A program made the position numbers and the translations under genes. From Candidatus Omnitrophota bacterium (GTDB lineage Bacteria; Omnitrophota; Gorgyraeia; B26-G9), in assembly GCA_043806135.1 (NCBI GenBank), contig JAZDHG010000016.1:42110-106109 (forward strand): a stretch of 64,000 nt of DNA, in the 5' to 3' direction. Under the pieces are notes generated by a model. The model made no database searches, had not been told where the DNA came from, and saw nothing but the letters and a program-made list of their open reading frames with translations. Of this stretch, positions 6,514 to 61,393 are shown in pieces; the stretch's first letter is position 1, and the number at the start of each line of letters is the position of its first letter.

Positions 6514-6675
6514 AGACATCTTATAAATAAAAAGCAGGAGGATGTTTTGATTGCAGAGATTAAGAAATCGATCACAGCGATTTGCTAATAAAAAGTAATC
6601 TTTGTAATCTTTTGATAATCTGTGTAATTAGGCATAATCCATTTCATGAGAGAGGATTATGCCAGGAGAGTTTCT

Positions 6676-26104: not shown

Positions 26105-26196
26105 GCATTTTGGTTTTATGATTAATCTAAAGTAAATGGCGTTGGGAGTGTTAAATCACATGCCAGGGAACATCTGGATTTGAGGAGGTAGCGGAT

Positions 26197-26709: not shown

Positions 26710-26733
26710 ACAAGGAAAGGGAGGAGCAAGAAC

Positions 26734-27108: not shown

Positions 27109-27168
27109 TCTTAAAAACACCACTAAAATATTTTTTCTTTGTTTGTTTAAAACAGGGGTGTTTATAAT

Positions 27169-27780: not shown

Positions 27781-27781
27781 A

Positions 27782-28276
27782 ATGGATTATGAGACAAACG
27801 AATTTCATGTCGGAATGGCTGACTCGAAAAGCGCGAAAGCACCTACTGTCCTTACATCATTAGGTCTTGGTTCCTGTGTGGGAGTTGTCTTATATTATGC
27901 CCGAGAGAAAATAGGCGGACTTGCCCATATAATGCTGCCGGAAATTGAATTAGTAAAGAACAAATCTAACCGGGCAAAATTTGCCAATACGGCAATCCCG
28001 GATCTGTTGGAAAAAATGGAAGCCCTTGGTGCGGACAGGCGTTTTGTGAAAGCTAAAATTATGGGCGGTGCGCATATGTTTGGGTTTTCTAAAACAAATA
28101 AAATTTTTAATATAGGGGAACGTAATATTGAAAAAACCAGGGAAGTATTGCAATCATTGAATATTAGGATTGCCGCTGAAGATGTCGGCGGATCTCATGG
28201 CCGGTCGCTTTATTTTTACTTGGAGACAGGCGATGTAAGAGTAAGAACAATTGCTCATGGAGAGAGAACATTATGA
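27782..28276 (+). CDS. cheD: Chemoreceptor glutamine deamidase CheD
   Basis: 164 aa with the motif VGMADSKSAKAPTVLTSLGLGSCVGVVLY, a CheD signature that includes the catalytic Cys. Confidence 0.85.
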   Translation: MDYETNEFHVGMADSKSAKAPTVLTSLGLGSCVGVVLYYAREKIGGLAHIMLPEIELVKNKSNRAKFANTAIPDLLEKMEALGADRRFVKAKIMGGAHMFGFSKTNKIFNIGERNIEKTREVLQSLNIRIAAEDVGGSHGRSLYFYLETGDVRVRTIAHGERTL

Positions 28277-29316: not shown

Positions 29317-29329
29317 AAGGATTTAACAA

Positions 29330-31357: not shown

Positions 31358-31415
31358 GTTTATTTTTCATAATAATCTTAATCATTGATTTTTAACTCTT
31401 AAGGAGGGAAACAAA

Positions 31416-32012
31416 ATGGCTGAGTTAACAGATGTTCAGCTGGATGCGTTACGTGAAATGGGTAATATCGGAGCAGGAAATGCGGCAACAGCACTTTCTC
31501 AGCTGATTAGCGAAACAATTGAGATCAGTGTTCCGTCTGTAAAGGTTGTGCCTTTGGATAACGTATCATATGTACTTGGCGGTCCTGAGAGGCTTGTTTA
31601 TGTTGTATATCTTGAAGTCCTCAGAGAAATGAATGGGACCATGTTGACTATTTTTTCACCGGAAAGCGCGGCTTTTCTGACGAAAAGGCTCTTAGGAGAA
31701 GATACGGTTGATATGCAAACCGAGATAGCCCAGTCAGCGCTAAAAGAGGTCGGATCTATTCTGTGCGGTTCCTATATTAGCGCCTTGACGCAGGTAGTTG
31801 CAATGCATGCTGTGGCAAGTGTTCCGGCCATGGCTAATGATATGCTCGGAGCAATGCTTAATTTTATTCTTGTAGAGATCGGGCAAGTTGCTGATGAAAT
31901 TTTTCTTATTAATGTAGAATTATTTGTTGCGAATACAAGGCTGGAATGTTCGCAGCTGTATTTGCCTAAGCCAGATACCTTGGAGGCTGTGCTTGCTGCG
32001 CTTGGCATGTAA
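31416..32012 (+). CDS. Second CheC/CheX-family protein
   Basis: EMGNIGAGNAATALSQLI motif; 198 aa. Confidence 0.7.
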   Translation: MAELTDVQLDALREMGNIGAGNAATALSQLISETIEISVPSVKVVPLDNVSYVLGGPERLVYVVYLEVLREMNGTMLTIFSPESAAFLTKRLLGEDTVDMQTEIAQSALKEVGSILCGSYISALTQVVAMHAVASVPAMANDMLGAMLNFILVEIGQVADEIFLINVELFVANTRLECSQLYLPKPDTLEAVLAALGM

Positions 32013-41856: not shown

Positions 41857-42912
41857 ATGAATAATAAACAATATTTAGCAGGGCTTTACCCCGAAGAACT
41901 TCAAACCATAGTAGCGGGCTTAAACCATCCAGTATACAGGTCAAAGCAGATACAGGAGTGGATATTTAAGAAAAGTGTTCTGTCTTTTTCAGAGATGAAA
42001 AACCTTCCCGGAGAACTAAGGGAAAAGCTGGAGATTAAAAATTGTCCTGTCAGTCTTCATCAAAAATTAAAATTAACCTCTGCTGTTGATAAAACCTCTA
42101 AATATATTTTTATTACCGATGATGATAATTCTTTAGAAACTGTTTTGATACCGACAGCCAAGCGGGCTACTGTATGCGTATCTACTCAGGTAGGATGTGC
42201 CTTTGGGTGCTTATTTTGCGCAAGCGGCAGCGGAGGACTGGTGCGCGATCTTAGGGCAGATGAGATCGTTTCGCAGCTATTGCTTGTAAAAAAAGACAAC
42301 CCCGAACAGCCGGTCACTAATATTGTATTTATGGGCATGGGAGAGCCGCTGGCAAATTATGAGAATACTTTAAAGGCAATCAGGATTTTAAACCATCCGG
42401 ATTGTCTGGGAATAGCCGCAAGGAGGATAACCATTTCAACCTGCGGGTTGCCGGATGCGATATTGCAGCTTGCCAAAGAGAACATACAGTTTGAATTATC
42501 GATCTCGTTGCATGCCGCGGATAATGATACGCGAAACCGTCTTATGCCGATAAACAAGAAATTCCCCCTGAATATGCTGATGAAGGCGGCCAGGGAATAC
42601 ACTCAGGTGACAAACCGCATGATCACATTTGAATATGTGATAATGGACGGGATCAATGATTCAATAAAAGCAGCTTTAGATATCGCGCATCTATTCTTTG
42701 CACTTAAGTGTAAACTTAATATTATCCCGTTTAATCCTGCTGGGGCAATGGATTTTAAGCGCGTGAAAAAAACACAGCTTGAAGAATTCACGCATATGCT
42801 TCAAAGGCTTAAGATCAATTTCACTCTAAGGCGTTCGCGGGGTGCGGATATCCAAGGCGCCTGCGGACAATTGAGAGCAAACTTAGATAAGGGGTTAGGG
42901 GATAGCGTATAG
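41857..42912 (+). CDS. rlmN: 23S rRNA (adenine2503-C2)/tRNA methyltransferase RlmN (radical SAM)
   Basis: 351 aa with the radical SAM CxxxCxxC motif in VGCAFGCLFCASG, conserved RlmN N- and C-terminal motifs, and the catalytic Cys in GACGQL. Confidence 0.92.
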   Translation: MNNKQYLAGLYPEELQTIVAGLNHPVYRSKQIQEWIFKKSVLSFSEMKNLPGELREKLEIKNCPVSLHQKLKLTSAVDKTSKYIFITDDDNSLETVLIPTAKRATVCVSTQVGCAFGCLFCASGSGGLVRDLRADEIVSQLLLVKKDNPEQPVTNIVFMGMGEPLANYENTLKAIRILNHPDCLGIAARRITISTCGLPDAILQLAKENIQFELSISLHAADNDTRNRLMPINKKFPLNMLMKAAREYTQVTNRMITFEYVIMDGINDSIKAALDIAHLFFALKCKLNIIPFNPAGAMDFKRVKKTQLEEFTHMLQRLKINFTLRRSRGADIQGACGQLRANLDKGLGDSV

Positions 42913-44310: not shown

Positions 44311-44660
44311 TAAACAATAAATTCCCCCTGAATATGCTGATGAAGGCGGTCAGGGAATATACTCAAGCGACAAACCGCATGATCACCTTTGAGTATGTGA
44401 TAATGGACGGGATTAATGATTCAATAAAAGCAGCTTTAGATATTGCGCATCTACTCTTTGCACTTAAGTGCAAACTTAATATTATCCCGTTTAATAATGT
44501 TGGGGCAATAGATTTTAAACGCGTGAAAAAAGCACAGCTTAAAGAATTCACGCATATGCTCCAAAGGCTTAAGATTAATTTTACTATAAGGCGTTCGCGG
44601 GGTGCGGATATTCAAGGCGCCTGCGGGCAGTTAAGGTTACATGTAGATAAGGGTAATTAG
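44311..44660 (+). pseudogene. rlmN: Duplicated 3' fragment of rlmN (last ~108 codons; ~90% nt identity to 42551-42890)
   Basis: Direct comparison with rlmN 42551-42890. The translation (MLMKAVREYTQATNRMITFEYVIMDGINDSIKAALDIAHLLFALKCKLNIIPFN...RRSRGADIQGACGQL) matches the RlmN C-terminus, but the radical SAM N-terminus is absent. Confidence 0.85.
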
Positions 44661-51197: not shown

Positions 51198-51851
51198 ATG
51201 CAGTTTAAAAAATTACGTTTATGGGCAACATATCCGTTTGCTTTAGTATATATATTATTCGCGTATAAACAGGGCATTGAGTTCATTCCCGGCATATGGT
51301 TTATTTTGTCCGGATTGTTAGTGCGTTGCTGGGCAGCCGGATATATAAAAAAGATAAAGGTACTGACTACTGCCGGGCCATACTCTTTTGTGCGCAATCC
51401 GCTGTATGTAGGGAATTTTCTCATGGGCCTGGGTTTCTGTCTGTTTGTACGGGATTTAATGCTTAGCCTTCTATATATAATTTTATTTTTCTTCTTTTAT
51501 ATAGGAACCATGAAAAAAGAAGAAGCAGTGCTTACGGATCTTTTTAAGGAGGAATATATTAATTACAAGAATAAGGTTCCTGCCTTTATCCCCCGTATTT
51601 TGCCTTATGCCTCAAAACAGCCGATGCGCTACAGCTTAAAACAGGCGTATTATAATGGTGAGCTGATCAGAGTAGTTGTAACGGGTATTTTGCTTTCTCT
51701 ATCTTATTTTGGGGTTGATTTTCTTAAAGCAGAGTCTTTGGACAAGGGTGAGCTGTTTAGGGCAGGACTGCTTATTGCGGTACAGGGCATAATACTGCTT
51801 GTAATCATACAGCATAGAAAAGAGTTTGTTAAAAAACAGGACAAAAAATAA
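51198..51851 (+). CDS. Isoprenylcysteine carboxyl methyltransferase (ICMT/PEMT) family membrane methyltransferase
   Basis: GPYSFVRNPLYVGNFLMGLG plus a C-terminal EE...L motif typical of the ICMT/phospholipid methyltransferase family. Confidence 0.7.
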   Translation: MQFKKLRLWATYPFALVYILFAYKQGIEFIPGIWFILSGLLVRCWAAGYIKKIKVLTTAGPYSFVRNPLYVGNFLMGLGFCLFVRDLMLSLLYIILFFFFYIGTMKKEEAVLTDLFKEEYINYKNKVPAFIPRILPYASKQPMRYSLKQAYYNGELIRVVVTGILLSLSYFGVDFLKAESLDKGELFRAGLLIAVQGIILLVIIQHRKEFVKKQDKK

Positions 51852-51900: not shown

Positions 51901-53586
51901 ATGCAGAAAACCTGGAATATACGAAAAATTGACGCAAAAAAACAGCAATCATTTGCCAAAGAGCTGGGGATATCTTTGATACTTGCACAGATTCTTTTGA
52001 ATCGCGGAATTCAGACAAAGGAGCAGGCGCGCAGTTATCTTTATGATGATATCAGCAAGTGTTTTGATCCTTTTTTGTTAAAAGGTATGAAAAAAGCGGT
52101 TAAGCGTACTCAAGAAGCGCTTGCTGGTAAAGAGAAAATTTTCATTTACGGAGACTATGATGTTGACGGCCTGAGCAGCACTGCTTTGCTTTATTTTGTT
52201 CTAAAAGACCTTGGGGCGGATGTCGCGTATTATATACCGCATAGAGTTGAAGAGGGTTACAGCCTGAATAAACAGGCGTGCATGAATTTAAAAAAACAAA
52301 AAGCAAAACTTATAATAACTGTTGATTGCGGGATAAGCAGTTTTAAAGAAGTAAAATATCTTAATTCTGCGGGCATAGACATCATCATAACCGATCATCA
52401 TCGTATAGTTGAAGGTAAAATACCTTCGGCGTATGCGGTAATTAATCCGATGCAAAAAGGATGTGATTATCCCTATAAGGATCTTGCCGGTGTAGGCATT
52501 GCCTATAAATTTGCTCAGGCGCTCACTCATGGAGTGATGGATGTAAACAGCCATCTTGATCTTGTGGCCCTGGGAACGATTAGTGATGTTGCGCCTTTAA
52601 CAGGTGAAAACAGGATTCTGGTCAAGCAGGGGCTCCAGGTACTGAGCAATACAAATAAGACAGGATTAAAAGCACTAATGGAGATCACCGGTATAAAAAA
52701 AAAGAAAATTTCAACCCAGCACGTAGGATTTATACTTGGACCGCGCATTAATGCCAGCGGACGTATGGGTTCAGCCGAAAAAGCGCTTGAGCTTTTGCTG
52801 AGTGATGACGATGAACATGCCTTGCGGCTTGCTAAAGACCTGGAAAATTATAACAGGCAGCGGCAAAAAGAGGAAGCTAAGACATTAAAGCAGGCTATTT
52901 CGATGATGCAAAGTGAAATAAATTTTAAACATCACCGCTCTGTAGTGTTACATAACGATGAGTGGCATCCCGGGGTTATCGGTATTGTGGCCTCGCGTAT
53001 TGCCGAAAAATATTACCGCCCGACGATATTGATTTCCACAAAAGATAAGATGGGCAAAGGATCAGGGCGTTCCATCAGGAACTTCCATCTTTTTGACACT
53101 CTTTCAAAATGCGGCCATTTATTGGAAAAATTCGGCGGGCATGAAAAAGCTGCGGGTATAAGTATTTTAAAAAACAACCTGCTTGATTTTAAAAAGTTCT
53201 TTAATGAAATGGTGCATAAGAGCCTATCCTGCGAGGAACTTGTTCCGGTTATTGACGTGGATATGGAAGTATCTCTTGACGTTTTATCTGAAAAGCTGAT
53301 AAATGAGCTTGAACTCTGCGCTCCTTTTGGCATAGGCAATCCGCGTCCTGTATTTGCTTCGCGTGATTTAAGGGCAAAAGACAGACCCAGGACTTTAAGG
53401 GGCAATGGTTTTAAAATATGGCTTACGGACGGCAAAGTGACCTGCGAGGCATTGGGCAGTAAGTTTAGCGATATTGATATTTCGGATATCAGCAGCGGGT
53501 TTTCCGTTGTATACTCTCCCTCTATAAATGACTGGCAGGGCATTAACACTATCCAGTTAAAACTCAAGGATCTGCAATTTTCCTGA
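51901..53586 (+). CDS. recJ: Single-stranded-DNA-specific exonuclease RecJ
   Basis: 561 aa with DHH motifs (IYGDYDVDGLSS, ITDHH) and a DHHA1 domain (GGHEKAAGI). Confidence 0.88.
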   Translation: MQKTWNIRKIDAKKQQSFAKELGISLILAQILLNRGIQTKEQARSYLYDDISKCFDPFLLKGMKKAVKRTQEALAGKEKIFIYGDYDVDGLSSTALLYFVLKDLGADVAYYIPHRVEEGYSLNKQACMNLKKQKAKLIITVDCGISSFKEVKYLNSAGIDIIITDHHRIVEGKIPSAYAVINPMQKGCDYPYKDLAGVGIAYKFAQALTHGVMDVNSHLDLVALGTISDVAPLTGENRILVKQGLQVLSNTNKTGLKALMEITGIKKKKISTQHVGFILGPRINASGRMGSAEKALELLLSDDDEHALRLAKDLENYNRQRQKEEAKTLKQAISMMQSEINFKHHRSVVLHNDEWHPGVIGIVASRIAEKYYRPTILISTKDKMGKGSGRSIRNFHLFDTLSKCGHLLEKFGGHEKAAGISILKNNLLDFKKFFNEMVHKSLSCEELVPVIDVDMEVSLDVLSEKLINELELCAPFGIGNPRPVFASRDLRAKDRPRTLRGNGFKIWLTDGKVTCEALGSKFSDIDISDISSGFSVVYSPSINDWQGINTIQLKLKDLQFS

Positions 53587-53822: not shown

Positions 53823-54920
53823 ATGGCCAAAAACAGGGGAAAAAATCTTTTTTTACTTCTGATGGTCCTATTTATAATCGCAGGGTCTTTTAATTGCAGC
53901 CGGGTTCTTTACGCGCAGGAAAATACCCATTGTATGTTACAAACTGCAAATCTTTCTCCTGCGCTTAAACTCCCTGAACAGGTATTTCAAGAGAGCTGGA
54001 GGGATATCATCGTTGACTTTTATATGCGCAGCAGTATATTGAGCGAATATGAATATCGGGTGTTAAAACTGAATGTCTTATTTAATGTAAAAATAAATCC
54101 GGCTGATATTGAACGAAGTTTATTGAATTCTATCAGCAAGGAAGATATTCCATACTATTTTTACGAAGCCACGCCGGATAAGGATTTAATAAGAAAAACA
54201 AGACTGAAAATCCGCAATAAATTCGAAATGATCCTTATTGAATATGGATGGGAGCTTGATATAAGCATGCTTAGATACCTTGAAGCCTTAATGAAAAAGA
54301 TCGCGGCGAAACAGGATAAAGATATTTCCGCATATCAAATGCAGATAACAAAAGTGTTGAACACTCTTACAGACGAAGAGATGCTGCTTTTTAAAGCCCA
54401 GCCGCGCTCTTTACAAGAGCATGCATTAAAAAAGAAGGTTATGTATCTTGTTAACGGAGAGATTGTTAAAGAAGGCGTTTTGATCGATTCAAAGGTAGGG
54501 GATGCCGTGGCTGATGCGGTTGAAGCAAAAAAGCAGAATCTGCTTTCTCAGGTGCGGTTTTACGTTAATATTCATAAGGATGAATTAAAACAGCAGCTGT
54601 ACAGTGAATTGCTTAGTGAAATAAGTTATTATTCTGCTCGCCATTCACGCTTAAGTCTCCAAAGGCAAAAGGTTCGCGCAGAAGCATTTGGAATATTCAT
54701 GGAATGGCTTAAAAGCAAAGAGAGTACGCTATCCTTTGATAAAGTGACGCTTTATAAAGAGGGGGAATTATGGGAATCGCGCTATTGGTTTATGCTTGAT
54801 GAGATCATGCGGGAATTAATTGAGGCAGGTTCTCTTGTAAACATTATTCCTGAATTGCCAAGTAGTAATCCGCCTCATCTACAAATACAAAACAGCCTAA
54901 TTATTAGCCAGGCAATATAA
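53823..54920 (+). CDS. Hypothetical exported, helical protein (first of three genes sharing the N-terminal LSPAL-FQ motif)
   Basis: N-terminal hydrophobic segment followed by LSPALKLPEQVFQESW. No known domain recognised. Confidence 0.6.
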   Translation: MAKNRGKNLFLLLMVLFIIAGSFNCSRVLYAQENTHCMLQTANLSPALKLPEQVFQESWRDIIVDFYMRSSILSEYEYRVLKLNVLFNVKINPADIERSLLNSISKEDIPYYFYEATPDKDLIRKTRLKIRNKFEMILIEYGWELDISMLRYLEALMKKIAAKQDKDISAYQMQITKVLNTLTDEEMLLFKAQPRSLQEHALKKKVMYLVNGEIVKEGVLIDSKVGDAVADAVEAKKQNLLSQVRFYVNIHKDELKQQLYSELLSEISYYSARHSRLSLQRQKVRAEAFGIFMEWLKSKESTLSFDKVTLYKEGELWESRYWFMLDEIMRELIEAGSLVNIIPELPSSNPPHLQIQNSLIISQAI

Positions 54921-55094
54921 TTTCAATCAAAAATAAACATAACTCTTTATTTTACAGCATGTTGTGAGCAGGGTATTTGTTTGCAAAGCAATGTGTTGTG
55001 TGGTATACTTTATCACCTTTTTTAACGTGCTTACAAAATGACTTTTTAAGAGAGAAATAAACAGGAAAAAGAAGGATTTAGATGGGTTTTTCAG

Positions 55095-56999
55095 GTGAAT
55101 AAATTTACGGTAATGAGAATTATAATCTTTATTCTTATTCAGGCATTTTTGTTTTCTACCAGTGCCTTTGCCCTGGGAATCTCTGTGTCATCTTTCTGTG
55201 ATAAAAACTGTCTGTCACCTGCAGTACAGCTTAAAACAAATAATTTTCAGAAGTTTTTTTTAGAACGCAGCTTGCAGCAGAATACTGCGGATAGTTTTCA
55301 GGAATACATAAAGCAGAAAATTATTGCAAAAGGAGGCAGAATAAGCTTTGCGGAATTCATGGATGATGCCTTGTATTCAGAGCACGGATTTTTCCCCAAG
55401 ATTGTAAATATTGGATACAACAATGTGTTCTCTTCTGATCCTGTCAAGGCTAAAGAAAAAAAGCATTTTAATACCTATGCAGAATCGCTGCCTTTTGCGC
55501 ATTCTCTGGCAATACAATTGATCGAGATGTGGGAATTAATGGGTACGCCGGATAAGTTTAGTATTGTTGAGATGGGAGCAGGCACAGGTGTTTTGGCAAA
55601 GAATATTATTAGTTATATACAAGAGCACAAACCGCAGCTTTATAAAAGCTTAGATTATGTAATAGTGGATATAAGCGAGAGGCTTATTGAGATACAGAAA
55701 GAGACTATAAAAAAGAAATTTAAGGATACGAAGGGTGTCCCTATCCGCTGGGAAAGTGGGGATGCTTTTCATCTATCAAAATTGGAGGATATTGAAGGAG
55801 TATTTCTTTCCAATGAAATGCCGGATAATTTTGCTGTTCACAGAATAAAAAAAGTTAACGGCAGATTCCTGGAAGTATATACTGCATTTCATGAAGGAAA
55901 TTTTGTGGATAAGCTTGGTCCGCTGTCAACTCCTGAGCTTAAAGCATATGTTGAGAATATTGGAGTTGAAATACAAGAAGGCCGTGAAATTCCTGTTAAT
56001 CTGAATTTGCGTGTTTGGCAGGAAAATATGGCTAAGGCACTGAAAAGAGGTTTTGTGATCACTATAGATTACGGCGGAAAGATCGAGGAAATAAGTGAAG
56101 AGCCTTATGCTGTGTGGAATAAGGAAACTAATGACATTGAAGACAGATCAGAAAAAATGAAATATATATATGATAACAGCGGAAACTGTGATATCACAGC
56201 CAATGTTAATTTCTTTGATACTGCTAAATGGGGTAAATCAGCTGGATTAAATGTGCATGGATATACGCTGCAAAGAGATTTTCTCGAGAACTTGGACTTT
56301 CATAAGATCCTGGATAATTTACAAAGACAGGATAAGCCGGAGCCGGGGCTGAAATCCCTTTCTAATGACATTGTCACTAATTTTCACTTTAAAGTGCTGG
56401 TTCAAAGTAAGGGGCTTGATGCGGATATTCCGCTTGCTGGCTTTAAGCAAATGGATGGATTTTTCATGAAGTATGAACAGAAAATAAGTTTAATATTGCC
56501 GATAGGCCCCAAGGAAAGCAAGTTTATCGTAGTAACTAATGATTTTAACCTGCAGAGTGAGCATGTAAAAAGAGGACAGGAAGGACTTAAAAAATATGCA
56601 GACTCTATTCGCGATTACAGGACTAAAACAGAAATAATCGAGGGTACAAATAATATGAGAGAGGGTAAGTATGTGCTTGATTTAAAACGCAAGGATTTTA
56701 GCGAGGGGTTTTCCGATTTAAGGATCTATAATGATAAAGGCGAGCTCATTTTTAATGCGAAAAACATTTCCGATTATGAAAAAGAAGCGTTTGTAATGAC
56801 AAAAAAGGCTTTTGATCAACAATACCGGACACGCTTTGATCTAAGCGATAAGCATATTACAAATGCTCCGGAGTTGTTTTATGTGCATCCCGACGGTTCT
56901 CTCCTGATTGTTCCACCGATTTTTCTGCCTGAAGGCGTTGTAGACAAGAAAGAATCCATTGATCAAAATCCAAACTTTATTCTGGAGAAATCGATTTAA
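55095..56999 (+). CDS. MidA/DUF185-family class I SAM-dependent methyltransferase-like protein with N-terminal signal segment and ~190-aa C-terminal extension
   Basis: ISFAEFMDDALYSEHGFF and SIVEMGAGTGVLAKNII match the MidA (NDUFAF7-like) family. The N-terminus has a signal-like segment followed by LSPAVQLKTNNFQKFF. Confidence 0.65.
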   Translation: MNKFTVMRIIIFILIQAFLFSTSAFALGISVSSFCDKNCLSPAVQLKTNNFQKFFLERSLQQNTADSFQEYIKQKIIAKGGRISFAEFMDDALYSEHGFFPKIVNIGYNNVFSSDPVKAKEKKHFNTYAESLPFAHSLAIQLIEMWELMGTPDKFSIVEMGAGTGVLAKNIISYIQEHKPQLYKSLDYVIVDISERLIEIQKETIKKKFKDTKGVPIRWESGDAFHLSKLEDIEGVFLSNEMPDNFAVHRIKKVNGRFLEVYTAFHEGNFVDKLGPLSTPELKAYVENIGVEIQEGREIPVNLNLRVWQENMAKALKRGFVITIDYGGKIEEISEEPYAVWNKETNDIEDRSEKMKYIYDNSGNCDITANVNFFDTAKWGKSAGLNVHGYTLQRDFLENLDFHKILDNLQRQDKPEPGLKSLSNDIVTNFHFKVLVQSKGLDADIPLAGFKQMDGFFMKYEQKISLILPIGPKESKFIVVTNDFNLQSEHVKRGQEGLKKYADSIRDYRTKTEIIEGTNNMREGKYVLDLKRKDFSEGFSDLRIYNDKGELIFNAKNISDYEKEAFVMTKKAFDQQYRTRFDLSDKHITNAPELFYVHPDGSLLIVPPIFLPEGVVDKKESIDQNPNFILEKSI

Positions 57000-57013
57000 A
57001 TTAATTTAAAAAG

Positions 57014-59119
57014 ATGAAAAGTAAAATTAAAAAAATAACAGTATATATATTAATTGAATTATTTATTCTGATTGAAGTTGCTTTGGCAGGAACAGGAAAA
57101 ATTATGCCTGATGCCGGAAACAGCATGCTTTCTCCTGCTTTGCAGATACCGGGTCAGATTTTTCAGAACATCTTTCTTAATAGCGACCTTGCTAAAGCGG
57201 TTAATTCTGTGCGGGTTGAGATAGGAGATAAAACTGAAAAAGACAACAAATTTGTCTGGGAAATAGAAGTTTATTTTCAAAATGACCAGCCGGGAGTACT
57301 GAATAATATCCTGCACAAGATATCTCCCGGGGTAGAGATTATCTGGTTTGAAATGTCCAGAAGAGATGGTGTAAGTTCAATAAAGATAGCGATTTCAACA
57401 GAAAAAAAAGAGCTGCTGGATACAACAGTCAAAGGTTTTAAGGAAATCAAAGATAAAAAAATTTATGTTCAAGAAAGTAGACACAGAAGTCTGGTTCTTA
57501 ATATCTCCCTGATCCAAGCGGAGAAAAGCTTGATTTTGATAACAGATTACCTGGCTCTACAAGATATTAATGTGTCAAAGTTTTTGACGCCAACCGTGAC
57601 CAGGACAGGCTATTCTAATTTTGTTTTTGAACTGGAAGTACCGGAAAAGACAAATATCAGATCTGTAGAAGCCGACCTTAGCTTTATAACCAAAGGTGTA
57701 GATGGTCATATGCAGCTGAGCAAGGGACAGCTGATAAATAAAATATTCCAGGAATCACTGCTGAAGAAAATAAATACACCTTTATCTAAAAAAGAAGAAC
57801 ATCAATTGCTGCGGGCCATTAAGATAGTAGGCAGGAGACATATAAGCGAATCAAGAAAGGACAGAAAAACCCCATTTATCATGCATCAGGTAGAAGCAGT
57901 TCAGATACTGGTAAATGAAATAAAGATTTTATCCCCGGAGGTTGTTTCCTTTATTGCCAAAAGTTTACAGGTTAATAAGGACGAGGAGGACGAGATTAAG
58001 GCCATAATACTTTTAGCTGCTCTTTTGCATGATGCTGTCGAAGATGGGGATATTTCATTAAAAAAGATTAAGAAGAAATTTGGGGTAAGGGTGGCGGATA
58101 TGGTTAAACTGCTGAGCAAGGAGGATATCCATAGGAGTAAACAAGGGGAGGCGGTTTATCTTGGTAACATGATAGAAAAAAAAGATATTATCGGGCTTAT
58201 CACACAGATCGTCAAGATTGCCGACCGCATTAATAATTTGCGGACTTTAGTAGATAATGATCGAGAATTTCAAAGAAAAATATTTTTTTCTACTTTAAAC
58301 ACTTTTATACCTGTATTTATAGATAAGATTGACCTTAATGGGATTGAGAATAAGCCGTTGCGGGAAGTTTTTAAGCGGGCGCTGCAGTTATTTGAGAGAC
58401 AGGTGTATCTTACCGGGCGGGAGCTTGGGCTTATTAATAAGCAGGGAAAGATAAACAAAGAGGGATACCGTATTTATGAGCAGGAAGAAAAACAGCGCCA
58501 GAAGAAGATGATCCTTGAAATAGGCAATTCGAAAAAAGTGCTGGCGTATGGAGTAGATGAATCCAAGGTCGGGTTACAGGGATTAGCGGATATTTTAATC
58601 CAAGGTTATGTCAAAGCACGGAAAACAAAGTCTGGTTATGTAATCTTTGCCGGTCCGTTGAGGCCGCAGAGAGTGGATGAACAGTATTTCGATTATATCG
58701 CGGAATCATCCGGAGATTACGGCCCCTACTATGTTATCTTGGATCCGGCAATAGAAAATATCAGGATTGAGCATAAAATAGGAGAAAAAAAAATCATAAT
58801 GCCTGGATTTTATAAAGCTCGGAAAGTAGGTATTGGTACATGGGGCTTACCCTATAAATATCATGGAGCTTATCTTGTGCCCACTGAAAAGGACAGACAG
58901 TTTTTAATTAAAAAAATTGAACAGGCGCTAAAACAATCCAGGATAAATATGGACTATGCCAAGCAGATCACTCAGAAAATCATTACTTATTTTGAGTTTA
59001 TACAGGCAAAAGAGGAAGTATGCCTGCTTAAGGTTGAACAAGGTGATACAGAGTCTGAAATGATAAGAAAAAAAGTGCTGAATTTATCCTGTAAAATATT
59101 TGTTGAACAAGCAATTTGA
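57014..59119 (+). CDS. Multidomain protein with N-terminal membrane/signal segment, ACT-like domains and a RelA/SpoT-type HD (ppGpp-hydrolase-like) domain
   Basis: Motifs LAALLHDAVEDG and VKIADRINNLRTL match the SpoT/Mesh1 HD-domain signature. No synthetase domain is present. The N-terminus carries the LSPALQIPGQIFQNIF motif. Confidence 0.65.
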   Translation: MKSKIKKITVYILIELFILIEVALAGTGKIMPDAGNSMLSPALQIPGQIFQNIFLNSDLAKAVNSVRVEIGDKTEKDNKFVWEIEVYFQNDQPGVLNNILHKISPGVEIIWFEMSRRDGVSSIKIAISTEKKELLDTTVKGFKEIKDKKIYVQESRHRSLVLNISLIQAEKSLILITDYLALQDINVSKFLTPTVTRTGYSNFVFELEVPEKTNIRSVEADLSFITKGVDGHMQLSKGQLINKIFQESLLKKINTPLSKKEEHQLLRAIKIVGRRHISESRKDRKTPFIMHQVEAVQILVNEIKILSPEVVSFIAKSLQVNKDEEDEIKAIILLAALLHDAVEDGDISLKKIKKKFGVRVADMVKLLSKEDIHRSKQGEAVYLGNMIEKKDIIGLITQIVKIADRINNLRTLVDNDREFQRKIFFSTLNTFIPVFIDKIDLNGIENKPLREVFKRALQLFERQVYLTGRELGLINKQGKINKEGYRIYEQEEKQRQKKMILEIGNSKKVLAYGVDESKVGLQGLADILIQGYVKARKTKSGYVIFAGPLRPQRVDEQYFDYIAESSGDYGPYYVILDPAIENIRIEHKIGEKKIIMPGFYKARKVGIGTWGLPYKYHGAYLVPTEKDRQFLIKKIEQALKQSRINMDYAKQITQKIITYFEFIQAKEEVCLLKVEQGDTESEMIRKKVLNLSCKIFVEQAI

Positions 59120-59349: not shown

Positions 59350-59658
59350 ATGCTTATTCTTGCATATATTATTGAGGGGCTTGCAACCGTTCTTGGGCTG
59401 GTATTGACAATAATGTATTGGTTGCTTTTGATCCGGGTGCTTATCAGCTGGGTTAGCCCGGACCCTTATAACCCGATTGTTCAATTTCTACACAGAGCAA
59501 CGGATCCGGTGCTTGAACCGCTGCATTATTTATTAATGCCATTGACCATGCAGATTAGAGTAGACCTGTCTCCTTTGCTGGCTTTTTTTATTATTGTATT
59601 TTTACAAAGGTCTTTGGTGGGAGTCTTGTTCCATGTCGCTTATTTGCTTAAACAATAA
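59350..59658 (+). CDS. yggT: YggT family membrane protein
   Basis: 102 aa with LLLIRVLISWVSPDPYNPIVQFLHRATDPVLEPL. Confidence 0.75.
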   Translation: MLILAYIIEGLATVLGLVLTIMYWLLLIRVLISWVSPDPYNPIVQFLHRATDPVLEPLHYLLMPLTMQIRVDLSPLLAFFIIVFLQRSLVGVLFHVAYLLKQ

Positions 59659-59695
59659 GTTGTTTTTGCTGCCTTAAGTAAAAAAAGGAAAAAGC

Positions 59696-61393
59696 GTGAA
59701 CAAAAACACAGTCAATAAGCTTTTAGATATCAGTATTGTAATTACCGCTGCTGTCTCATTTATCATTTTGCTTGTGCAGTGGGAAATAATGCCTGTTATT
59801 AAAACGCTTACTACTTCTCTGCTGGATATAATCGATATTATTGTTTTAGCTGTATTCTTTATATGTGTTTTGGTACGTTTTATAGCTAACCCGAATAAAA
59901 AAGAATATTTCAAGGAATATTGGATAGACCTGATCATCATTCTGCCTTTGATCCAGATATTTCAAGGTGTGCACAATACGGGTCTTGCGATTGTTTTAAG
60001 AGAAGCAATAAGATTGCTCAGGTTTTTATCCCGGATAAAAGTGCCAGAGCGGTTGATCAGTTTGCTAGGTATAAAACCGGCACAGCTTTTGATCGTAACA
60101 TTTTTGATGACGATCTTAATCGGGACGTTTTTGCTTACTCTTCCTGTTTCAACACAAAGCAGCCAGGGAATGAATTTCGTCGATGCCTTGTTTACGGCGA
60201 CATCGGCAACCTGTGTGACCGGCCTGATTGTGCAGGATACAGGCAGCTTTTTTTCAATTTTCGGACAGCTTGTGATCTTGCTGCTTATCCAGGTCGGGGC
60301 ATTGGGAATAATGACTTTTTCCGTAACCTTATTCCTGGCTGCGGGCAAACAGATGTCTAATAGAGAAGCTATTGCCATGCAGGATGTTCTTAATCAGGAC
60401 AGTATTGCGGGAATTATGAATCTGATTGCTTTTATAGCAAAAATGACCATATGCATAGAGGCTTTGGGAGCGGTTTTTCTTTTTGCCGGGTTTATACCTT
60501 ATATCAGTGACCCCTGGCAAAGGGCATATATATCTTTGTTCCATTCTGTTTCTGCTTTTTGTAATGCAGGATTTTCATTATTCCCAGACAGTATTATGAA
60601 GTATACAAATGACGGGGTTATCAACCTGTCTATTGCTTTTTTGATTATTCTCGGCGGGTTGGGGTTTATCGTCGTAAAAGATCTCTGGGATATGTTTGTT
60701 TTAGGTTTGCGACCTAAGAGTTTAGGTTTAAGACTGCATACTAAGATCGTTTTATCCATGACCGCTATTTTACTTGTTGCCGGTACAATTGTTATATTTT
60801 TTGCGGAAAATAAGGTTAATTTTACGGGTATGGCTTTCAAACACAAAATTTTAATAAGCTTTTTTCAATCTGTTTCAGCCAGGACAGCGGGGTTTAACAG
60901 TGTGGATATTGGCGGCATGACCAATGGGAGTATATTCAGCATTATTGTACTGATGTTTATCGGGGCCTCGGCCGGTTCTACAGGAGGAGGTATTAAGACT
61001 ACAACTTTTTGGGTATTGCTAAAGTCATTTAGCAGCAGCCTGCAGAACAAGGAAGATATAAACACATTTAAGAAAAAAATCCCTGAACAGATCGTTGGCA
61101 AGGCAATAGCCATATTTATATTATCCTTGGGTTTTGTTAGCTTGTTTATGTATCTTTTGTCTGTTTTTGAACCGCTGCCTTTCAAGGCTTTGCTCTTTGA
61201 GGTTGTATCTGCATTCGGTACTGTAGGGCTTTCTACAGGGATTACGGCACAATTGCATAATGCCGGTAAATTACTGATAACCTGCTTAATGTTTTTGGGA
61301 AGGCTGGGGCCTTTAACAGTCGTTCTGGCTTTTTCAGGGTATAAAAGAAAAATAAATTATACCTATGCACAAGAAAAAATTATGGTCGGATAA
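59696..61393 (+). CDS. TrkH/KtrB-family K+ transporter with an N-terminal ~130-aa four-helix extension resembling a voltage-sensor (S1-S4-like) module
   Basis: The core shows TrkH/KtrB pore-loop signatures (TATSATCVTGL, GASAGSTGGGIKTTT, SAFGTVGLSTG). The N-terminal extension contains EYWIDLIIILP (S3-like) and LREAIRLLRFLSRIK (Arg at every third or fourth position, S4-like). Confidence 0.75.
   Translation: MNKNTVNKLLDISIVITAAVSFIILLVQWEIMPVIKTLTTSLLDIIDIIVLAVFFICVLVRFIANPNKKEYFKEYWIDLIIILPLIQIFQGVHNTGLAIVLREAIRLLRFLSRIKVPERLISLLGIKPAQLLIVTFLMTILIGTFLLTLPVSTQSSQGMNFVDALFTATSATCVTGLIVQDTGSFFSIFGQLVILLLIQVGALGIMTFSVTLFLAAGKQMSNREAIAMQDVLNQDSIAGIMNLIAFIAKMTICIEALGAVFLFAGFIPYISDPWQRAYISLFHSVSAFCNAGFSLFPDSIMKYTNDGVINLSIAFLIILGGLGFIVVKDLWDMFVLGLRPKSLGLRLHTKIVLSMTAILLVAGTIVIFFAENKVNFTGMAFKHKILISFFQSVSARTAGFNSVDIGGMTNGSIFSIIVLMFIGASAGSTGGGIKTTTFWVLLKSFSSSLQNKEDINTFKKKIPEQIVGKAIAIFILSLGFVSLFMYLLSVFEPLPFKALLFEVVSAFGTVGLSTGITAQLHNAGKLLITCLMFLGRLGPLTVVLAFSGYKRKINYTYAQEKIMVG

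What the first reader, a model, noticed from the sequence alone, without database searches (positions are those of the whole stretch)
53823..59119. Three-gene cluster whose products share an N-terminal hydrophobic segment plus a conserved LSPAL(K/Q)(L/I)P-Q-FQ motif: unknown protein, MidA-like methyltransferase, SpoT-type HD-domain protein
The three consecutive ORFs have N-termini ...ANLSPALKLPEQVFQESW, ...NCLSPAVQLKTNNFQKFF and ...SMLSPALQIPGQIFQNIF, each 15-25 residues after a signal-peptide-like or TM segment. I know of no described sorting signal that matches this motif. Two of the cargo domains are normally cytoplasmic: a DUF185/MidA (NDUFAF7-like) SAM methyltransferase and a RelA/SpoT HD domain carrying the intact HDxxED and ADRxxNxRT hydrolase motifs. 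Both are embedded in much longer proteins with ACT-like modules and unknown C-terminal extensions. A shared leader-plus-motif on co-encoded proteins suggests either a common export or targeting route (a novel N-terminal sorting or processing signal) or co-assembly into one membrane-anchored complex. That complex might couple an alarmone-hydrolase-like activity to protein methylation. The combination looks undescribed to me.
Basis: partly seen in the sequence, partly recalled or inferred. Interest (0 to 1): 0.7.

Follow-up and report, generated by a model that had tools for sequence, protein, structure and literature searches.

The report
Shared end-tags on co-encoded Omnitrophota enzymes
In about a dozen related Omnitrophota genomes, every protein encoded in one small variable gene island carries the same signal-peptide-plus-LSP box at its start and the same five-residue tail at its end, whatever enzyme it is; this looks like an undescribed address label on enzymes that normally stay in the cytoplasm.

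Summary
The three ORFs (53823-54920, 55095-56999, 57014-59119, + strand) each carry a roughly 55-residue N-terminal module. It has a basic n-region, an 18-residue h+c region ending x-(W/F)-A, a 13-residue linker and an L-S-P-A-Φ-x-Φ box.

Both tags are kept in orthologues down to about 25-40% identity. They also occur on other enzyme families encoded at the same locus: a true PPDK, an MTS-type methyltransferase, a TreT-like glycosyltransferase (start seen only) and an unknown 653-aa protein. The locus always begins just after recJ; where the contig reaches far enough, yggT, mscS or trkH follows. There is one leader and one tail per polypeptide, even in a HD+methyltransferase fusion and in truncated variants. 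Canonical PPDKs have neither tag (0 of 116). In 1.9 Mb of unrelated DNA no ORF had both tags.

Both tags lie in segments AlphaFold2 models with low confidence. Pfam and NCBIfam have no model for them.

Best reading (confidence 0.42): a portable two-part address tag, giving Sec export followed by recognition of both ends by a shared partner. Where the proteins end up, and what recognises the tags, are unknown.

The parts
53823..54920 (+). ORF1 ('U'), 365 aa. It has an all-alpha core of unknown fold (aa 52-336) between the two tags. NCBI names it a hypothetical protein (MFH1092926.1).
53823..53915 (+). ORF1 leader: MAKNRGK (n-region), a hydrophobic core, and an end at ...VLYA, the predicted signal-peptidase-I-type site.
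   Evidence: Manual n/h/c dissection. This is the only hydrophobic segment in the protein.
53952..53972 (+). ORF1 N-box LSPALKL, 12 residues after the predicted cleavage site.
   Evidence: AF2 pLDDT below 50 over aa 24-51.
54903..54917 (+). ORF1 C-terminal tail ISQAI-COOH.
   Evidence: AF2 pLDDT below 50 over aa 337-365.
55095..56999 (+). ORF2, 634 aa. It is a MidA/NDUFAF7-like (Methyltransf_28) SAM methyltransferase (aa 138-391) with an unknown extension of about 240 aa, between the two tags.
   Evidence: Pfam E=1e-52. PDB sequence matches 4f3n, 5ztz and 1zkd, which are COG1565, NDUFAF7 and DUF185 entries.
55095..55172 (+). ORF2 leader: MNKFTVMR, then IIIFILIQAFLF (h-region), then STSAFA (c-region). 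The gene starts with GTG.
   Evidence: Methyltransferase orthologues also start with GTG, preceded by a GGGGG-type ribosome-binding site.
55212..55232 (+). ORF2 N-box LSPAVQL, 13 residues after the predicted cleavage site.
56982..56996 (+). ORF2 C-terminal tail LEKSI-COOH.
57014..59119 (+). ORF3, 701 aa. Between the two tags it has tandem ACT folds (aa 66-145 and 157-237), a RelA/SpoT-type HD hydrolase domain (aa 240-500) and an unknown C-terminal region (aa 501-696). NCBI names it 'HD domain-containing protein' (MFH1092928.1).
   Evidence: Pfam and NCBIfam. A profile of the family against PDB gives Rel, SpoT, MESH1 and SAH at E down to 5e-20. Invariant H291, H339, D340, E343, D344, D404, R405, N408 and R410. 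AF2 model. Foldseek finds MESH1, SAH and Rel, plus GcvR/SerB2-type ACT pairs.
57014..57088 (+). ORF3 leader: MKSKIKK, then ITVYILIELFIL (h-region), then IEVALA (c-region).
   Evidence: A25 (the -1 Ala) is nearly invariant in alignment A2.
57128..57148 (+). ORF3 N-box LSPALQI, 13 residues after the predicted cleavage site.
   Evidence: L39 and P41 are invariant in 11 orthologues. AF2 pLDDT below 50 over aa 20-63.
59102..59116 (+). ORF3 C-terminal tail VEQAI-COOH.
   Evidence: AF2 pLDDT below 50 over aa 663-701.
51901..53586 (+). recJ, the conserved left border of the island in every related locus.
   Evidence: Sequence. DHH, DHHA1 and RecJ_OB domains on the orthologous neighbours.
59350..61393 (+). 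yggT (59350-59658) and trkH (59696-61393), the conserved right border of the island.
   Evidence: YGGT Pfam E=2e-19. The same neighbours occur in L161, L162, L163, L165, L167 and L169.

Best explanation
**What it is.** The three genes are this genome's version of a small island of variable content, found in about a dozen related Omnitrophota genomes. The island always begins just after recJ. Where the contig extends far enough, it is followed by yggT, mscS or trkH.

**The tags.** Every intact protein encoded in the island carries the same pair of portable terminal tags, whatever its catalytic family.
- The N-terminal tag has four parts:
  - a Sec-type signal peptide with a basic n-region;
  - an 18-residue h+c region ending in small-x-Ala;
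  - a 13-residue acidic or neutral linker;
  - the box L-S-P-A-Φ-x-Φ.
- The C-terminal tag is Φ-(E/G)-(Q/K/R)-(A/S)-Ile with a free carboxylate.

**Proposed mechanism.**
1. The leader takes each protein across the cytoplasmic membrane through Sec, and it is probably cleaved after the Ala.
2. The two exposed, flexible end-peptides are then read by one shared partner. This could be a receptor, a chaperone or a pore component encoded elsewhere in the genome.
3. The whole enzyme set therefore reaches the same extracytoplasmic destination.

**Likely destination.** The cargo enzymes need ATP or PEP, SAM, (p)ppGpp-type substrates and NDP-sugars. The final site of action is therefore more likely the cell surface or another cell than the ordinary periplasm.

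**Shown versus inferred.**
- Shown here: the tags exist, they are under selection, they are portable across at least six families, they occur once per polypeptide, and in all sequence sampled they are confined to the island.
- Inferred: export, cleavage, the existence of a reader protein, and the destination.
For: 1. **Conservation.**
   - N-box: L 35/36, S or A 36/36, P 36/36, Φ+4 36/36, Φ+6 36/36.
   - Tail: I or V at -5 in 30/35, Q, K or R at -3 in 31/35, A or S at -2 in 33/35, Ile at -1 in 34/35.
   - The tags hold across orthologues at 24-61% identity.
2. **Selection is on the protein.** Tail codons vary synonymously and the DNA downstream is unrelated.
3. **Portability.**
   - Both tags are seen on U, Methyltransf_28, an MTS-type methyltransferase, the HD protein, PPDK and an unknown 653-aa protein. 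The TreT-like glycosyltransferase shows the leader only.
   - 4 of 120 PPDK hits carry both tags. These are the Omnitrophota proteins, about 49% identical to canonical PPDK, and P0133 keeps the TSHAA and GICGE motifs. None of the 116 canonical PPDKs carries a matching tail, and the three inspected lack the leader.
4. **Limited similarity between families.** It is confined to the first 55 residues or so, for example 46% over 56 aa between L163 MT and L163 HD.
5. **One leader and one tail per polypeptide.**
   - In the fusion P0011 the methyltransferase part starts at about residue 70 of the free-standing enzyme, so the inner leader and inner tail are gone.
   - Short variants keep the tail: P0010 at 556 aa, and the window ORF1 at 365 aa against 575-740 aa in several orthologues.
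6. **Signal-peptide anatomy.**
   - n-region net charge +3.1.
   - h+c length 18 aa (median).
   - Ala at -1 in 31/31, with a small or aliphatic residue at -3.
   - Linker net charge -1.2.
   - No second hydrophobic segment anywhere in the proteins.
   - Ribosome-binding sites precede the leader start codons of several genes (U, PPDK and most methyltransferases).
7. **Flexible segments.** Both tags lie in low-confidence, non-globular parts of both AF2 models, as expected for short linear recognition motifs.
8. **Specificity.** No ORF among 2331 in 1.92 Mb of unrelated DNA has both tags. No flanking gene in the window or in ten related loci has both; the only single-tag hits are split or truncated island genes, one antisense ORF and a chance EKSV ending on a flanking rlmN-type (RlmN_N/radical SAM) gene in L167.
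9. **Context in the literature.** Omnitrophota giant proteins made of the same enzyme types (methyltransferases, HD, PPDK_N, glycosyltransferases, ROK kinases) are also predicted to carry signal peptides or TM helices. They have been proposed to be extracellular effectors (10.64898/2026.06.07.730766; 10.1101/2023.11.21.568195; PMC10066038).
Against: - No experiment and no dedicated predictor (SignalP, DeepTMHMM) was available. Export and cleavage rest on my manual reading of the leader.
- The cargo enzymes are cytoplasmic in every studied organism and need cofactors that are absent from the periplasm.
- The PPDK copies look catalytically intact and could simply be the housekeeping enzyme.
- No secretion or receptor gene lies in the island. 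The only secretion-type genes in the window are about 42-47 kb upstream and are not linked to it: a PilT/T2SSE ATPase at 6646-7746 and a prepilin peptidase at 11339-12349.
- The window encodes branched-chain and aromatic amino-acid synthesis, chemotaxis and a NiFe hydrogenase. This does not look like a reduced obligate parasite.
- The island sits at a fixed chromosomal position among housekeeping genes, which is unlike a typical mobile effector locus.
- The h-region often contains Gln or Glu (ILIQxF, ILIELF), which is unusual for Sec signals.
- I could sample only about 200 kb around the islands, so 'restricted to the island' is not established genome-wide.
Confidence: 0.42

Rival explanations
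1. **Membrane-tethered multi-enzyme assembly.** The N-terminal hydrophobic segment is an uncleaved anchor. The N-box and C-tail are docking peptides, comparable to docking domains of modular synthases or to donor-strand or PDZ-type end recognition. They hold the island's proteins together, head-to-tail or on the helical ORF1 protein as scaffold, in one membrane-associated complex.
For: - The genes are always adjacent and on the same strand.
- The natural HD+methyltransferase fusion P0011 shows that these two enzymes work together.
- ORF1 is an all-helical protein with no catalytic signature, so it could be a scaffold.
- Both tags lie in flexible segments suited to peptide-in-groove binding.
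- Related domains occur fused in one giant ORF in L003, as ROK kinase plus ACT-ACT-HD.
Against: - Composition is not fixed. ORF1 is absent in L163, HD is absent in L165, PPDK occurs in only three genomes, and gene order differs in L161.
- The strict small-x-Ala site, with Ala at -1 in 31/31, and the 12+6 h/c layout are features of cleaved signals, not of anchors.
- With the basic n-region inside, the enzymes would still sit outside the cytoplasm.
- AF2 did not pair the N-box with the tail within one chain. Pairing between chains could not be tested.
Confidence: 0.25
2. **Targeting to an internal or otherwise unusual compartment.** The leader and tags deliver ordinary metabolic and regulatory enzymes to a compartment where nucleotides and SAM are available. 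This could be an intracellular membrane system or an enlarged, metabolically active periplasm-like space, as debated for PVC-group bacteria. The enzymes would then act inside the producer cell rather than as effectors.
For: - The cargo is housekeeping-like. The PPDK is about 49% identical to canonical enzymes, and P0133 keeps the catalytic motifs. The HD domain is regulated by ACT domains and has all catalytic residues.
- The island has a fixed chromosomal position among core genes.
- The organism looks metabolically self-sufficient.
- The same paradox of cytoplasmic-type enzymes carrying signal peptides is reported phylum-wide for Omnitrophota giant proteins (10.64898/2026.06.07.730766).
Against: - No such compartment is known in Omnitrophota.
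- No shell, coat or vesicle genes lie near the island.
- It is not known whether these genomes also hold an untagged PPDK.
Confidence: 0.15
3. **Proteolytic control tags.** The tail is a degron or processing site read by a tail-specific (PDZ) protease or an AAA+ unfoldase. The N-box is a second cleavage or maturation site. The island's proteins would then be co-regulated by processing or turnover rather than sorted.
For: - A free C-terminal small-residue-Ile with a basic or amide residue at -3 resembles known C-terminal protease or unfoldase recognition peptides, such as the MuA ...RRKKAI tail read by ClpX. This comparison is from my own knowledge and was not tested.
- The tags are terminal, flexible and short.
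Against: - A degron does not explain the obligatory pairing with a signal peptide of fixed geometry.
- No protease gene is linked to the island.
- Conservation of both tags across six families suggests a positive function for the mature proteins.
Confidence: 0.1
4. **No function.** The shared ends are leftovers of gene duplication or domain shuffling at one locus, or a chance resemblance.
For: - Cross-family similarity over the first 55 residues or so shows that the leaders share ancestry.
- The distribution is narrow. Only 11-12 relatives each were found for the HD and U families, in searches of 5.8 billion protein clusters (HD) and 1.84 billion representatives (U).
Against: - Invariant positions persist at 24-40% overall identity while the linkers drift.
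- Tail codons vary synonymously.
- The tags are kept when domains are lost or fused.
- They were acquired by a PPDK whose closest relatives lack them.
- No ORF among 2331 control ORFs has both tags.
Confidence: 0.02

Closest known systems
Two-ended sorting codes: an N-terminal Sec signal plus a C-terminal sorting element (T9SS C-terminal domain, LPXTG/sortase, PEP-CTERM/exosortase, GlyGly-CTERM/rhombosortase)
   Same: - Each protein carries one Sec-type leader and one conserved C-terminal element.
- The tags are portable across unrelated catalytic domains.
- They are lineage-restricted.
   Different: - The tail here is only about 5-7 residues and ends in a free Ile. It has no TM helix plus basic cluster and no 80-residue beta-sandwich.
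- There are no Pfam or NCBIfam matches.
- A third element, the LSP box at mature position +14, has no counterpart in these systems.
- The cargo is made of cytoplasmic-type enzymes.
- No sortase-like gene is linked to the island.
Signals in the mature N-terminus read after Sec export (the curli CsgA N22 segment; the Bacteroidota lipoprotein export signal)
   Same: A short conserved peptide lies a fixed, small distance after the signal-peptidase site.
   Different: - The sequence is unrelated.
- No lipobox is present.
- Here the element is paired with a C-terminal tail.
- This comparison is from my own knowledge and was not tested.
Conserved specialised signal peptides of very large secreted proteins (the extended signal peptide region of autotransporters; YSIRK leaders)
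   Same: The leader sequence itself is conserved beyond generic n/h/c features (KKITxxILIQxFLxLNxSWA) across different passenger proteins.
   Different: - The consensus is different.
- There is no N-terminal extension before the n-region.
- The passengers are enzymes rather than adhesins.
Omnitrophota giant multi-enzyme ('Archaeovorin-type') proteins
   Same: - Same phylum.
- Same repertoire of enzyme types: methyltransferases, HD, PPDK_N, glycosyltransferases and ROK kinases.
- Same paradox of signal peptides or TM helices on cytoplasmic-type domains (10.1101/2023.11.21.568195; 10.64898/2026.06.07.730766).
- The ACT-ACT-HD module also occurs inside a giant ORF (L003).
   Different: - The proteins here are separate, 365-2231 aa each, with one leader and one tail.
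- The visible 1742 aa of the giant ORF in L003 contain no internal leader or hydrophobic segment and only one regex-level N-box match (at residue 1444), with no preceding leader.
- The end-tags are not mentioned in those papers, as far as my text searches show.
Small alarmone hydrolases, MESH1 and the SpoT hydrolase domain; MidA/NDUFAF7 methyltransferases; pyruvate phosphate dikinase (the cargo domains)
   Same: - The sequence and fold matches are clear.
- Catalytic motifs are intact in the HD domain and in the P0133 PPDK; they were not checked for the methyltransferase.
   Different: - All characterised members are cytoplasmic or mitochondrial-matrix proteins without signal peptides.
- Here they carry the leader, the box and the tail, plus extra unknown regions.

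Membership tests
Sec / signal peptidase I signal peptide | A basic n-region, a hydrophobic h-region of 7-15 residues, and a polar c-region with small residues at -3 and -1 | tested here: met
   In 31 leaders the n-region net charge is +3.1 and the h+c length is 18 aa (median, roughly 12+6). Ala is at -1 in 31/31. The -3 residue is A, S, C, T or G in 20 of 31, V in 6 and L in 5. This was a manual analysis; SignalP and DeepTMHMM were not available.
Sec / signal peptidase I signal peptide | Actual translocation and cleavage | not testable with these tools
   This needs N-terminal proteomics or reporter fusions.
Lipoprotein (signal peptidase II) signal | A lipobox [LVI][ASTVI][GAS]C at the end of the h-region | tested here: not met
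   No conserved Cys follows the h-region. The Cys that often precedes the LSP box lies in TDC, KNC or ADC contexts and is absent from the HD and PPDK families.
Tat signal | A twin-arginine S/T-R-R-x-F-L-K motif in the n-region | tested here: not met
   The n-regions are Lys-rich. No RR-x-F-L-K type motif is present in the 31 leaders; the only adjacent Arg pair is in L162 HD (MKIMRRKDTR).
Type IV prepilin / pseudopilin leader | G-|-(F/M)-x-x-x-E cleavage motif before the hydrophobic helix | tested here: not met
   There is no Gly before the h-region. The mid-helix polar residue is mostly Gln and is not at +5 of a G-F site.
Double-glycine (C39 peptidase) leader | L-S-x-x-E-L-x-x-I-x-G-G cleavage motif | tested here: not met
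   The LSP box has no GG and its spacing is different.
PEP-CTERM, LPXTG, GlyGly-CTERM and similar C-terminal sorting domains | A C-terminal motif followed by a TM helix and a basic cluster | tested here: not met
   No C-terminal hydrophobic segment exists in any member. The proteins end directly in ...QAI. No NCBIfam sorting-domain match was found at E<=0.1.
T9SS C-terminal domain | A C-terminal beta-sandwich domain of about 80 residues | tested here: not met
   No Pfam or NCBIfam match. The C-terminal regions are modelled with low confidence or as helix. The conserved part is only 5-7 residues.
Microcompartment or encapsulin cargo-loading peptides | A terminal amphipathic helix on the cargo, with shell genes in the locus | tested here: not met
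   No shell or encapsulin genes lie in the window or in related loci. The N-terminal segment has signal-peptide architecture, not that of an amphipathic peptide.
RelA/SpoT-homologue hydrolase domain (HD_4), ORF3 | HD...ED metal and catalytic motifs and the downstream ADRxxNxR motif on the Rel/MESH1 fold | tested here: met
   H291, H339, D340, E343, D344, D404, R405, N408 and R410 are invariant in 11 orthologues. A family profile against PDB gives E=5e-20 to Rel. Foldseek target-normalised TM-score is 0.6-0.73 to MESH1 and SAH. The substrate, (p)ppGpp or another, was not tested.
MidA/NDUFAF7 (Methyltransf_28, DUF185), ORF2 | A full-length match to the family model | tested here: met
   PF02636 at E=1e-52 covers model positions 2-249 of 249. 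PDB sequence matches are 4f3n, 5ztz and 1zkd. Protein-arginine methylation activity is not testable here.
Pyruvate phosphate dikinase (tagged relatives P0133-P0136) | PPDK_N, PEP-utilizers and PEP-utilizers_C domains with the phospho-His motif | tested here: met
   All three domains are found. The proteins are about 49% identical to canonical PPDKs. The GGKTSHAAV and GICGE motifs are present in P0133.

The most novel reading that the evidence does not exclude
The leader, LSP box and IxQAI tail together are the signature of a previously unknown protein-delivery pathway in Omnitrophota. The pathway would ship a variable kit of ATP/PEP-, SAM-, NDP-sugar- and alarmone-metabolising enzymes out of the cytoplasm. 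The destination would be either a partner or prey cell, where the enzymes act as effectors that rewire host energy and stringent-response metabolism, or an energised extracytoplasmic compartment. These small proteins would then be tractable models for the unexplained signal-peptide-bearing 'metabolic' giant proteins of the phylum.
Probability: 0.3. Interest if true: 0.85.

Novelty: new variant of a known kind. Interest (0 to 1): 0.68.

Why it matters
1. **A new tag.** It defines a sequence-level tag that is absent from Pfam and NCBIfam: a leader of fixed geometry, an LSP box and a C-terminal Ile tail. The tag can be searched for and mutated.
2. **A clean test case for the export paradox.** A bona fide PPDK, a SpoT-like hydrolase and SAM methyltransferases all carry what looks like a cleavable export signal. 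Preprints have raised the same paradox for Omnitrophota giant proteins of 10-147 thousand residues, which are experimentally intractable. The proteins here are 365-2231 residues and can be expressed, localised and assayed.
3. **A possible new pathway.** If the tags prove to be a delivery code, they point to an unknown reader or secretion machinery. They also point to a set of enzymes that act outside the producer's cytoplasm, which bears on the proposed predatory or symbiotic lifestyle of the phylum.
4. **Still useful otherwise.** If the tags prove to be docking peptides, they are a new minimal system for assembling enzymes.

Tried and rejected
1. **Profile search with the leader alignment.** I searched 5.8 billion protein clusters with the 18-sequence N-terminal alignment A2 to find further tagged families. 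Only 238 candidates shared words and none scored E<=10. The module is too short and hydrophobic for this tool. The question of tagged proteins elsewhere in the genomes stays open.
2. **Metagenome and genome scans.**
   - The metagenome-contig scan with the HD family alignment was swamped by ordinary RelA/SpoT genes and yielded no family member.
   - The genome-contig scan found only three true relatives: L001, L002 and L003.
3. **Nucleotide-level explanation of the tail** (ribosome-binding site or terminator overlap). Rejected: the codons vary synonymously, and the downstream sequence and the distance to the next gene differ.
4. **Internal alternative start just before the LSP box**, which would give a leaderless cytoplasmic isoform. 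The preceding codon is ATG only in the PPDKs and two HD proteins; otherwise it is TGT/TGC, ACG/ACC, AAC/AAT, TAT, CTC, TTA or, once, GTG, and no consistent ribosome-binding site precedes it. Rejected as a general explanation, but not excluded for PPDK.
5. **Intramolecular clasp between N-box and tail.** AF2 models of ORF3 and ORF1 place both in low-confidence, unpaired segments. Not supported.
6. **Giant proteins as concatenated [leader-module-tail] units.** The visible 1742 aa of the L003 giant ORF and the 2231-aa PPDK have no internal leader; L003 shows a single regex-level N-box match without a leader. Not supported by these two cases.
8. **More sequence from the window's own contig.** Exact-protein look-ups either failed or returned a short duplicate contig.
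9. **PEMT/ICMT-like membrane methyltransferase upstream of recJ as a possible carboxyl-methylase for the tails.** It is syntenic in most loci but absent from L165. This is only a lead.

Full report
**1. What is in the window**

- ORF1, 53823-54920, 365 aa.
- ORF2, 55095-56999, 634 aa, GTG start.
- ORF3, 57014-59119, 701 aa.

ORF2 carries a full-length Methyltransf_28 (DUF185, MidA/NDUFAF7) domain at E=1e-52 over aa 138-391. ORF3 carries an HD_4 domain and a weak ACT match. ORF1 matches nothing in Pfam, NCBIfam or PDB sequences.

A profile of ORF3 and its relatives hits Rel, SpoT, MESH1 and small alarmone hydrolases in the PDB at E down to 5e-20. The catalytic residues H291, H339, D340, E343, D344, D404, R405, N408 and R410 are invariant in 11 orthologues.

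An AlphaFold2 model of ORF3 has mean pLDDT 71. It shows two confident tandem ACT folds (aa 66-145 and 157-237) and the HD domain (aa 240-500). Foldseek matches MESH1, SAH and Rel, and GcvR/SerB2-type ACT pairs.

The source is a Candidatus Omnitrophota MAG. NCBI names the products 'hypothetical protein' and 'HD domain-containing protein'.

**2.

The pattern SP[AS].{7}FQ occurs exactly three times in the six-frame translation of the window. Each time it lies at residues 39-44 of one of these ORFs.

All three proteins also end in the same kind of tail...IISQAI...ILEKSI and ...FVEQAI.

**3. Conservation in relatives**

The families are tiny.
- ORF3 has only about 11 full-length relatives among 5.8 billion protein clusters.
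- ORF1 has 12 relatives among 1.84 billion representatives read exhaustively by HMMER.

The named relatives come from Omnitrophota MAGs; most carry no source name.

Every intact member of each family has the hydrophobic leader, the box and the tail, down to 24-40% identity.

Compiled over 36 N-termini and 35 C-termini:

| Element | Position | Conservation |
|---|---|---|
| N-box | 0 | L 35/36 |
| N-box | +1 | S 30, A 6 |
| N-box | +2 | P 36/36 |
| N-box | +3 | A 22/36 |
| N-box | +4 | Φ 36/36 |
| N-box | +6 | Φ 36/36 |
| N-box | +11, +15 | mostly hydrophobic or aromatic (F 13 and L 11 at +11; F 17 at +15) |
| Tail | -5 | I or V 30/35 |
| Tail | -4 | E or G 24/35 |
| Tail | -3 | Q, K or R 31/35 |
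| Tail | -2 | A or S 33/35 |
| Tail | -1 | Ile 34/35 |

Tail codons vary synonymously: ATT, ATA and ATC for Ile; GCA, GCT, GCG, GCC, TCx; CAA, CAG, AAA, AAG and CGx. The downstream DNA is unrelated. Selection therefore acts on the peptide and not on an overlapping nucleotide signal.

**4. The leader is a module with fixed geometry**

In 31 leaders:
- The n-region carries a net charge of +3.1.
- The stretch from the last basic residue to a conserved Ala is 18 residues in most. That is about 12 hydrophobic residues plus a polar c-region of about 6.
- Ala occupies -1 in 31/31. The -3 residue is A, S, C, T or G in 20 of 31, V in 6 and L in 5.
- The linker from that Ala to the box is 13 residues in most, with a net charge of -1.2.

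The h-region itself is similar across families (KKITxxILIQxFLxLNxSWA).

BLAST between families finds similarity only in the first 55 residues or so, for example 46% identity over 56 aa between the methyltransferase and the HD protein of locus L163.

Each protein has exactly one hydrophobic segment, at the N-terminus. Ribosome-binding sites precede the leader start codons of several genes (U, PPDK and most methyltransferases), so the leaders are translated.

By sequence this is a classical cleavable Sec/SPI signal. It has no lipobox, no twin arginine and no prepilin or double-glycine site. I had no SignalP or DeepTMHMM, so this is a manual call.

**5. The tags are portable and mark a gene island, not a protein family**

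All ten related loci begin the tagged-gene stretch directly after recJ. Where the contig extends far enough, yggT, mscS or trkH follows (L164, L166 and L168 end inside the island). The content of the stretch varies.

| Locus | Genes in the island, in order |
|---|---|
| window | U, MT28, HD |
| L001 | U, MT28, HD |
| L161 | MT28, U, HD |
| L163 | MT28, HD |
| L169 / L162 | PPDK (2231 aa), U, MTS+MT28 (965 aa), HD |
| L167 | PPDK (1387 aa), an 83-aa minus-strand ORF without tags, U, MT28, HD |
| L168 | PPDK, U (split), MT28, HD (split) |
| L165 | U, MTS-type methyltransferase; no HD |
| L166 | unknown 653-aa protein, U |
| L164 | U, TreT-like glycosyltransferase |

Every intact tagged-family protein in these islands has both tags; the only other gene called there is the 83-aa minus-strand ORF in L167, which has neither. 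No flanking gene has both. The single-tag hits are split or edge-truncated island genes, one spurious antisense ORF in the window, and a chance EKSV ending on a flanking rlmN-type (RlmN_N/radical SAM) gene in L167.

Among the 120 best PPDK relatives, exactly four carry both the leader-plus-box and the tail (...EKAI...GKAI...DKAI). These are the Omnitrophota proteins, about 49% identical to canonical PPDK, and P0133 keeps the GGKTSHAAV and GICGE motifs. None of the other 116 ends in the tail, and the three of them inspected also lack the leader.

In 1.92 Mb of unrelated loci (2331 ORFs of at least 150 aa), the box pattern alone occurs 6 times, the tail pattern alone 12 times and both together never. 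In the island loci 26 ORFs have both.

**6. One leader and one tail per polypeptide**

P0011 (1070 aa, locus L002) is a natural fusion of ACT-ACT-HD with the MidA-like methyltransferase. Its methyltransferase part aligns from about residue 70 of the free-standing enzyme, so the internal leader and internal tail are gone. The outer ones remain in degenerate form (HLAPKS...FERAS).

Short variants keep the tail:
- P0010 lacks the 150-residue C-terminal region of the HD protein yet ends ...LIERAI.
- The window's ORF1 is 365 aa against 575-740 aa in several orthologues, yet ends ...ISQAI.

This is the behaviour of signals that belong to the chain ends, not to a domain.

**7. Structure**

In both AF2 models the box and the tail lie in segments with pLDDT below 50. 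These are aa 20-63 and 663-701 in ORF3, and aa 24-51 and 337-365 in ORF1. They flank confident cores and do not pack against each other. This fits short linear motifs read by a partner.

**8. Interpretation**

Shown:
- A pair of end-tags exists and is under selection.
- It is portable across at least six catalytic families.
- It occurs once per polypeptide.
- It is confined to one island in all sequence I could sample.

Inferred:
- The leader drives Sec export and is cleaved after the conserved Ala.
- The box, at mature position about +14, and the free C-terminal Ile tail are read by a shared partner that routes or assembles the whole set.

The difficulty is that the cargo (PPDK, SAM methyltransferases, a SpoT-like hydrolase, a sugar-nucleotide transferase) needs cytoplasmic cofactors. 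Three resolutions are possible:
- **(a) Delivery beyond the periplasm,** to the surface or into another cell, as an effector kit. The phylum is thought to be largely host-dependent or predatory. Its giant proteins carry the same enzyme types together with signal peptides and have been proposed as extracellular effectors (PMC10066038; 10.1101/2023.11.21.568195; 10.64898/2026.06.07.730766).
- **(b) A membrane-tethered complex** held together by the end peptides.
- **(c) Targeting to an unrecognised compartment** in the producer.

Points against (a):
- The window encodes ilv/leu and aro biosynthesis, a che operon and a NiFe hydrogenase.
- The island has a fixed position among core genes.
- No secretion gene is linked to it.

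I rank (a), or more generally 'export plus a shared reader', first at 0.42. The docking complex is at 0.25, an internal compartment at 0.15, proteolytic control at 0.10 and no function at 0.02.

**9. Comparison with known systems**

The closest analogues in logic are two-ended sorting codes: a Sec signal plus a T9SS C-terminal domain, LPXTG, PEP-CTERM or GlyGly-CTERM. Their defining C-terminal features are absent here. These are a TM helix with a basic cluster, or an 80-residue beta-sandwich. None of them has an element like the LSP box.

Signals in the mature N-terminus (CsgA N22; the Bacteroidota lipoprotein export signal) and conserved specialised leaders (ESPR, YSIRK) resemble single parts of the arrangement only. 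These comparisons are from my own knowledge.

The cargo domains are ordinary members of their families. What is unusual is where they are attached.

My text searches of the Omnitrophota papers found no mention of these tags.

**10. Verdict**

The finding is confirmed and extended. It is best classed as a new variant of a known kind, namely terminal protein-sorting or assembly tags. The main limits are the lack of any localisation data and the lack of whole-proteome scans of the tag-bearing genomes.

Noticed in passing
L003:1-5229 (frame 2); contig CAZNGC010000091.1, labelled uncultured Planctomycetales: The whole 5.2-kb contig is one open reading frame that runs off both ends (at least 1742 aa). 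It contains a ROK-kinase-like region followed by the same ACT-ACT-HD module (26% identity to ORF3 aa 73-488) and further unknown sequence. It has no hydrophobic segment or leader and only one regex-level N-box match (residue 1444). This looks like part of a giant multi-enzyme protein.
   Followed up: partly
L002:9839-13051 (protein P0011, 1070 aa); contig CAYUET010000013.1: This is a natural fusion of the ACT-ACT-HD protein with the MidA-like methyltransferase, in a different genomic context: an RND/MMPL-like transporter, a MlaC-like protein and a glycosidase-like protein upstream, and leuA and yicC downstream. No ORF1 homologue is nearby. The tags are degenerate (HLAPKS; ...FERAS).
   Followed up: partly
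window:43004-46149 (minus strand) and 44334-44660 (plus strand): This is a low-GC stretch (0.34-0.37) holding four back-to-back pairs of small genes that look like toxin-antitoxin modules, judged from the sequences only. They resemble a BrnT/BrnA-like pair, RelE/ParE with a ribbon-helix-helix antitoxin, YoeB with Phd/YefM, and HepT with a MntA-type nucleotidyltransferase. The stretch lies just after rlmN (41857-42912). It contains a 108-aa near-duplicate of the rlmN 3' end (44334-44660), as if an element had integrated into the end of rlmN.
   Followed up: no
window:2-436, 447-1259, 1271-2140: Three consecutive ORFs; the two complete ones have no Pfam match. They share nearly the same C-terminal end (GKILILVNKQ, GKIYILVNKK, GEGKIYILVN). 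They appear to be tandem paralogues of an uncharacterised family.
   Followed up: no
window:50230-50913 and 51198-51851: A small outer-membrane beta-barrel protein and a PEMT/ICMT-family membrane methyltransferase sit just upstream of recJ. They are syntenic with the island in the window, L161, L163, L167 and L169, and at least the PEMT gene in L168. The PEMT/ICMT gene is missing in L165. An ICMT-like carboxyl methyltransferase next to proteins with a conserved free C-terminus is a lead that I could not test.
   Followed up: partly
P0133-P0136 (L167:10001-14164, L168:2724-7091, L169:5706-12401) and window:57125-57127: In all four tagged PPDKs and in two HD proteins the residue directly before the LSP box is Met (…EMLSP…). 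In the other families it is Cys, Thr, Asn, Tyr, Leu or Val. An internal start giving a leaderless isoform cannot be excluded for the PPDKs.
   Followed up: partly
window:32028-34190: A 720-aa protein directly after the che operon (24398-32012) has weak PilM/FtsA-like actin-fold matches at the N-terminus and a ThiS/ubiquitin-like match at the C-terminus. This is an unusual combination.
   Followed up: no
L168:7363-9159 and 11190-12746: In this JGI contig the ORF1 homologue and the HD homologue are each split into two ORFs: 130 + 464 aa, and 160 + at least 331 aa. The cause could be assembly frameshifts or decay of the island in that genome.
   Followed up: no
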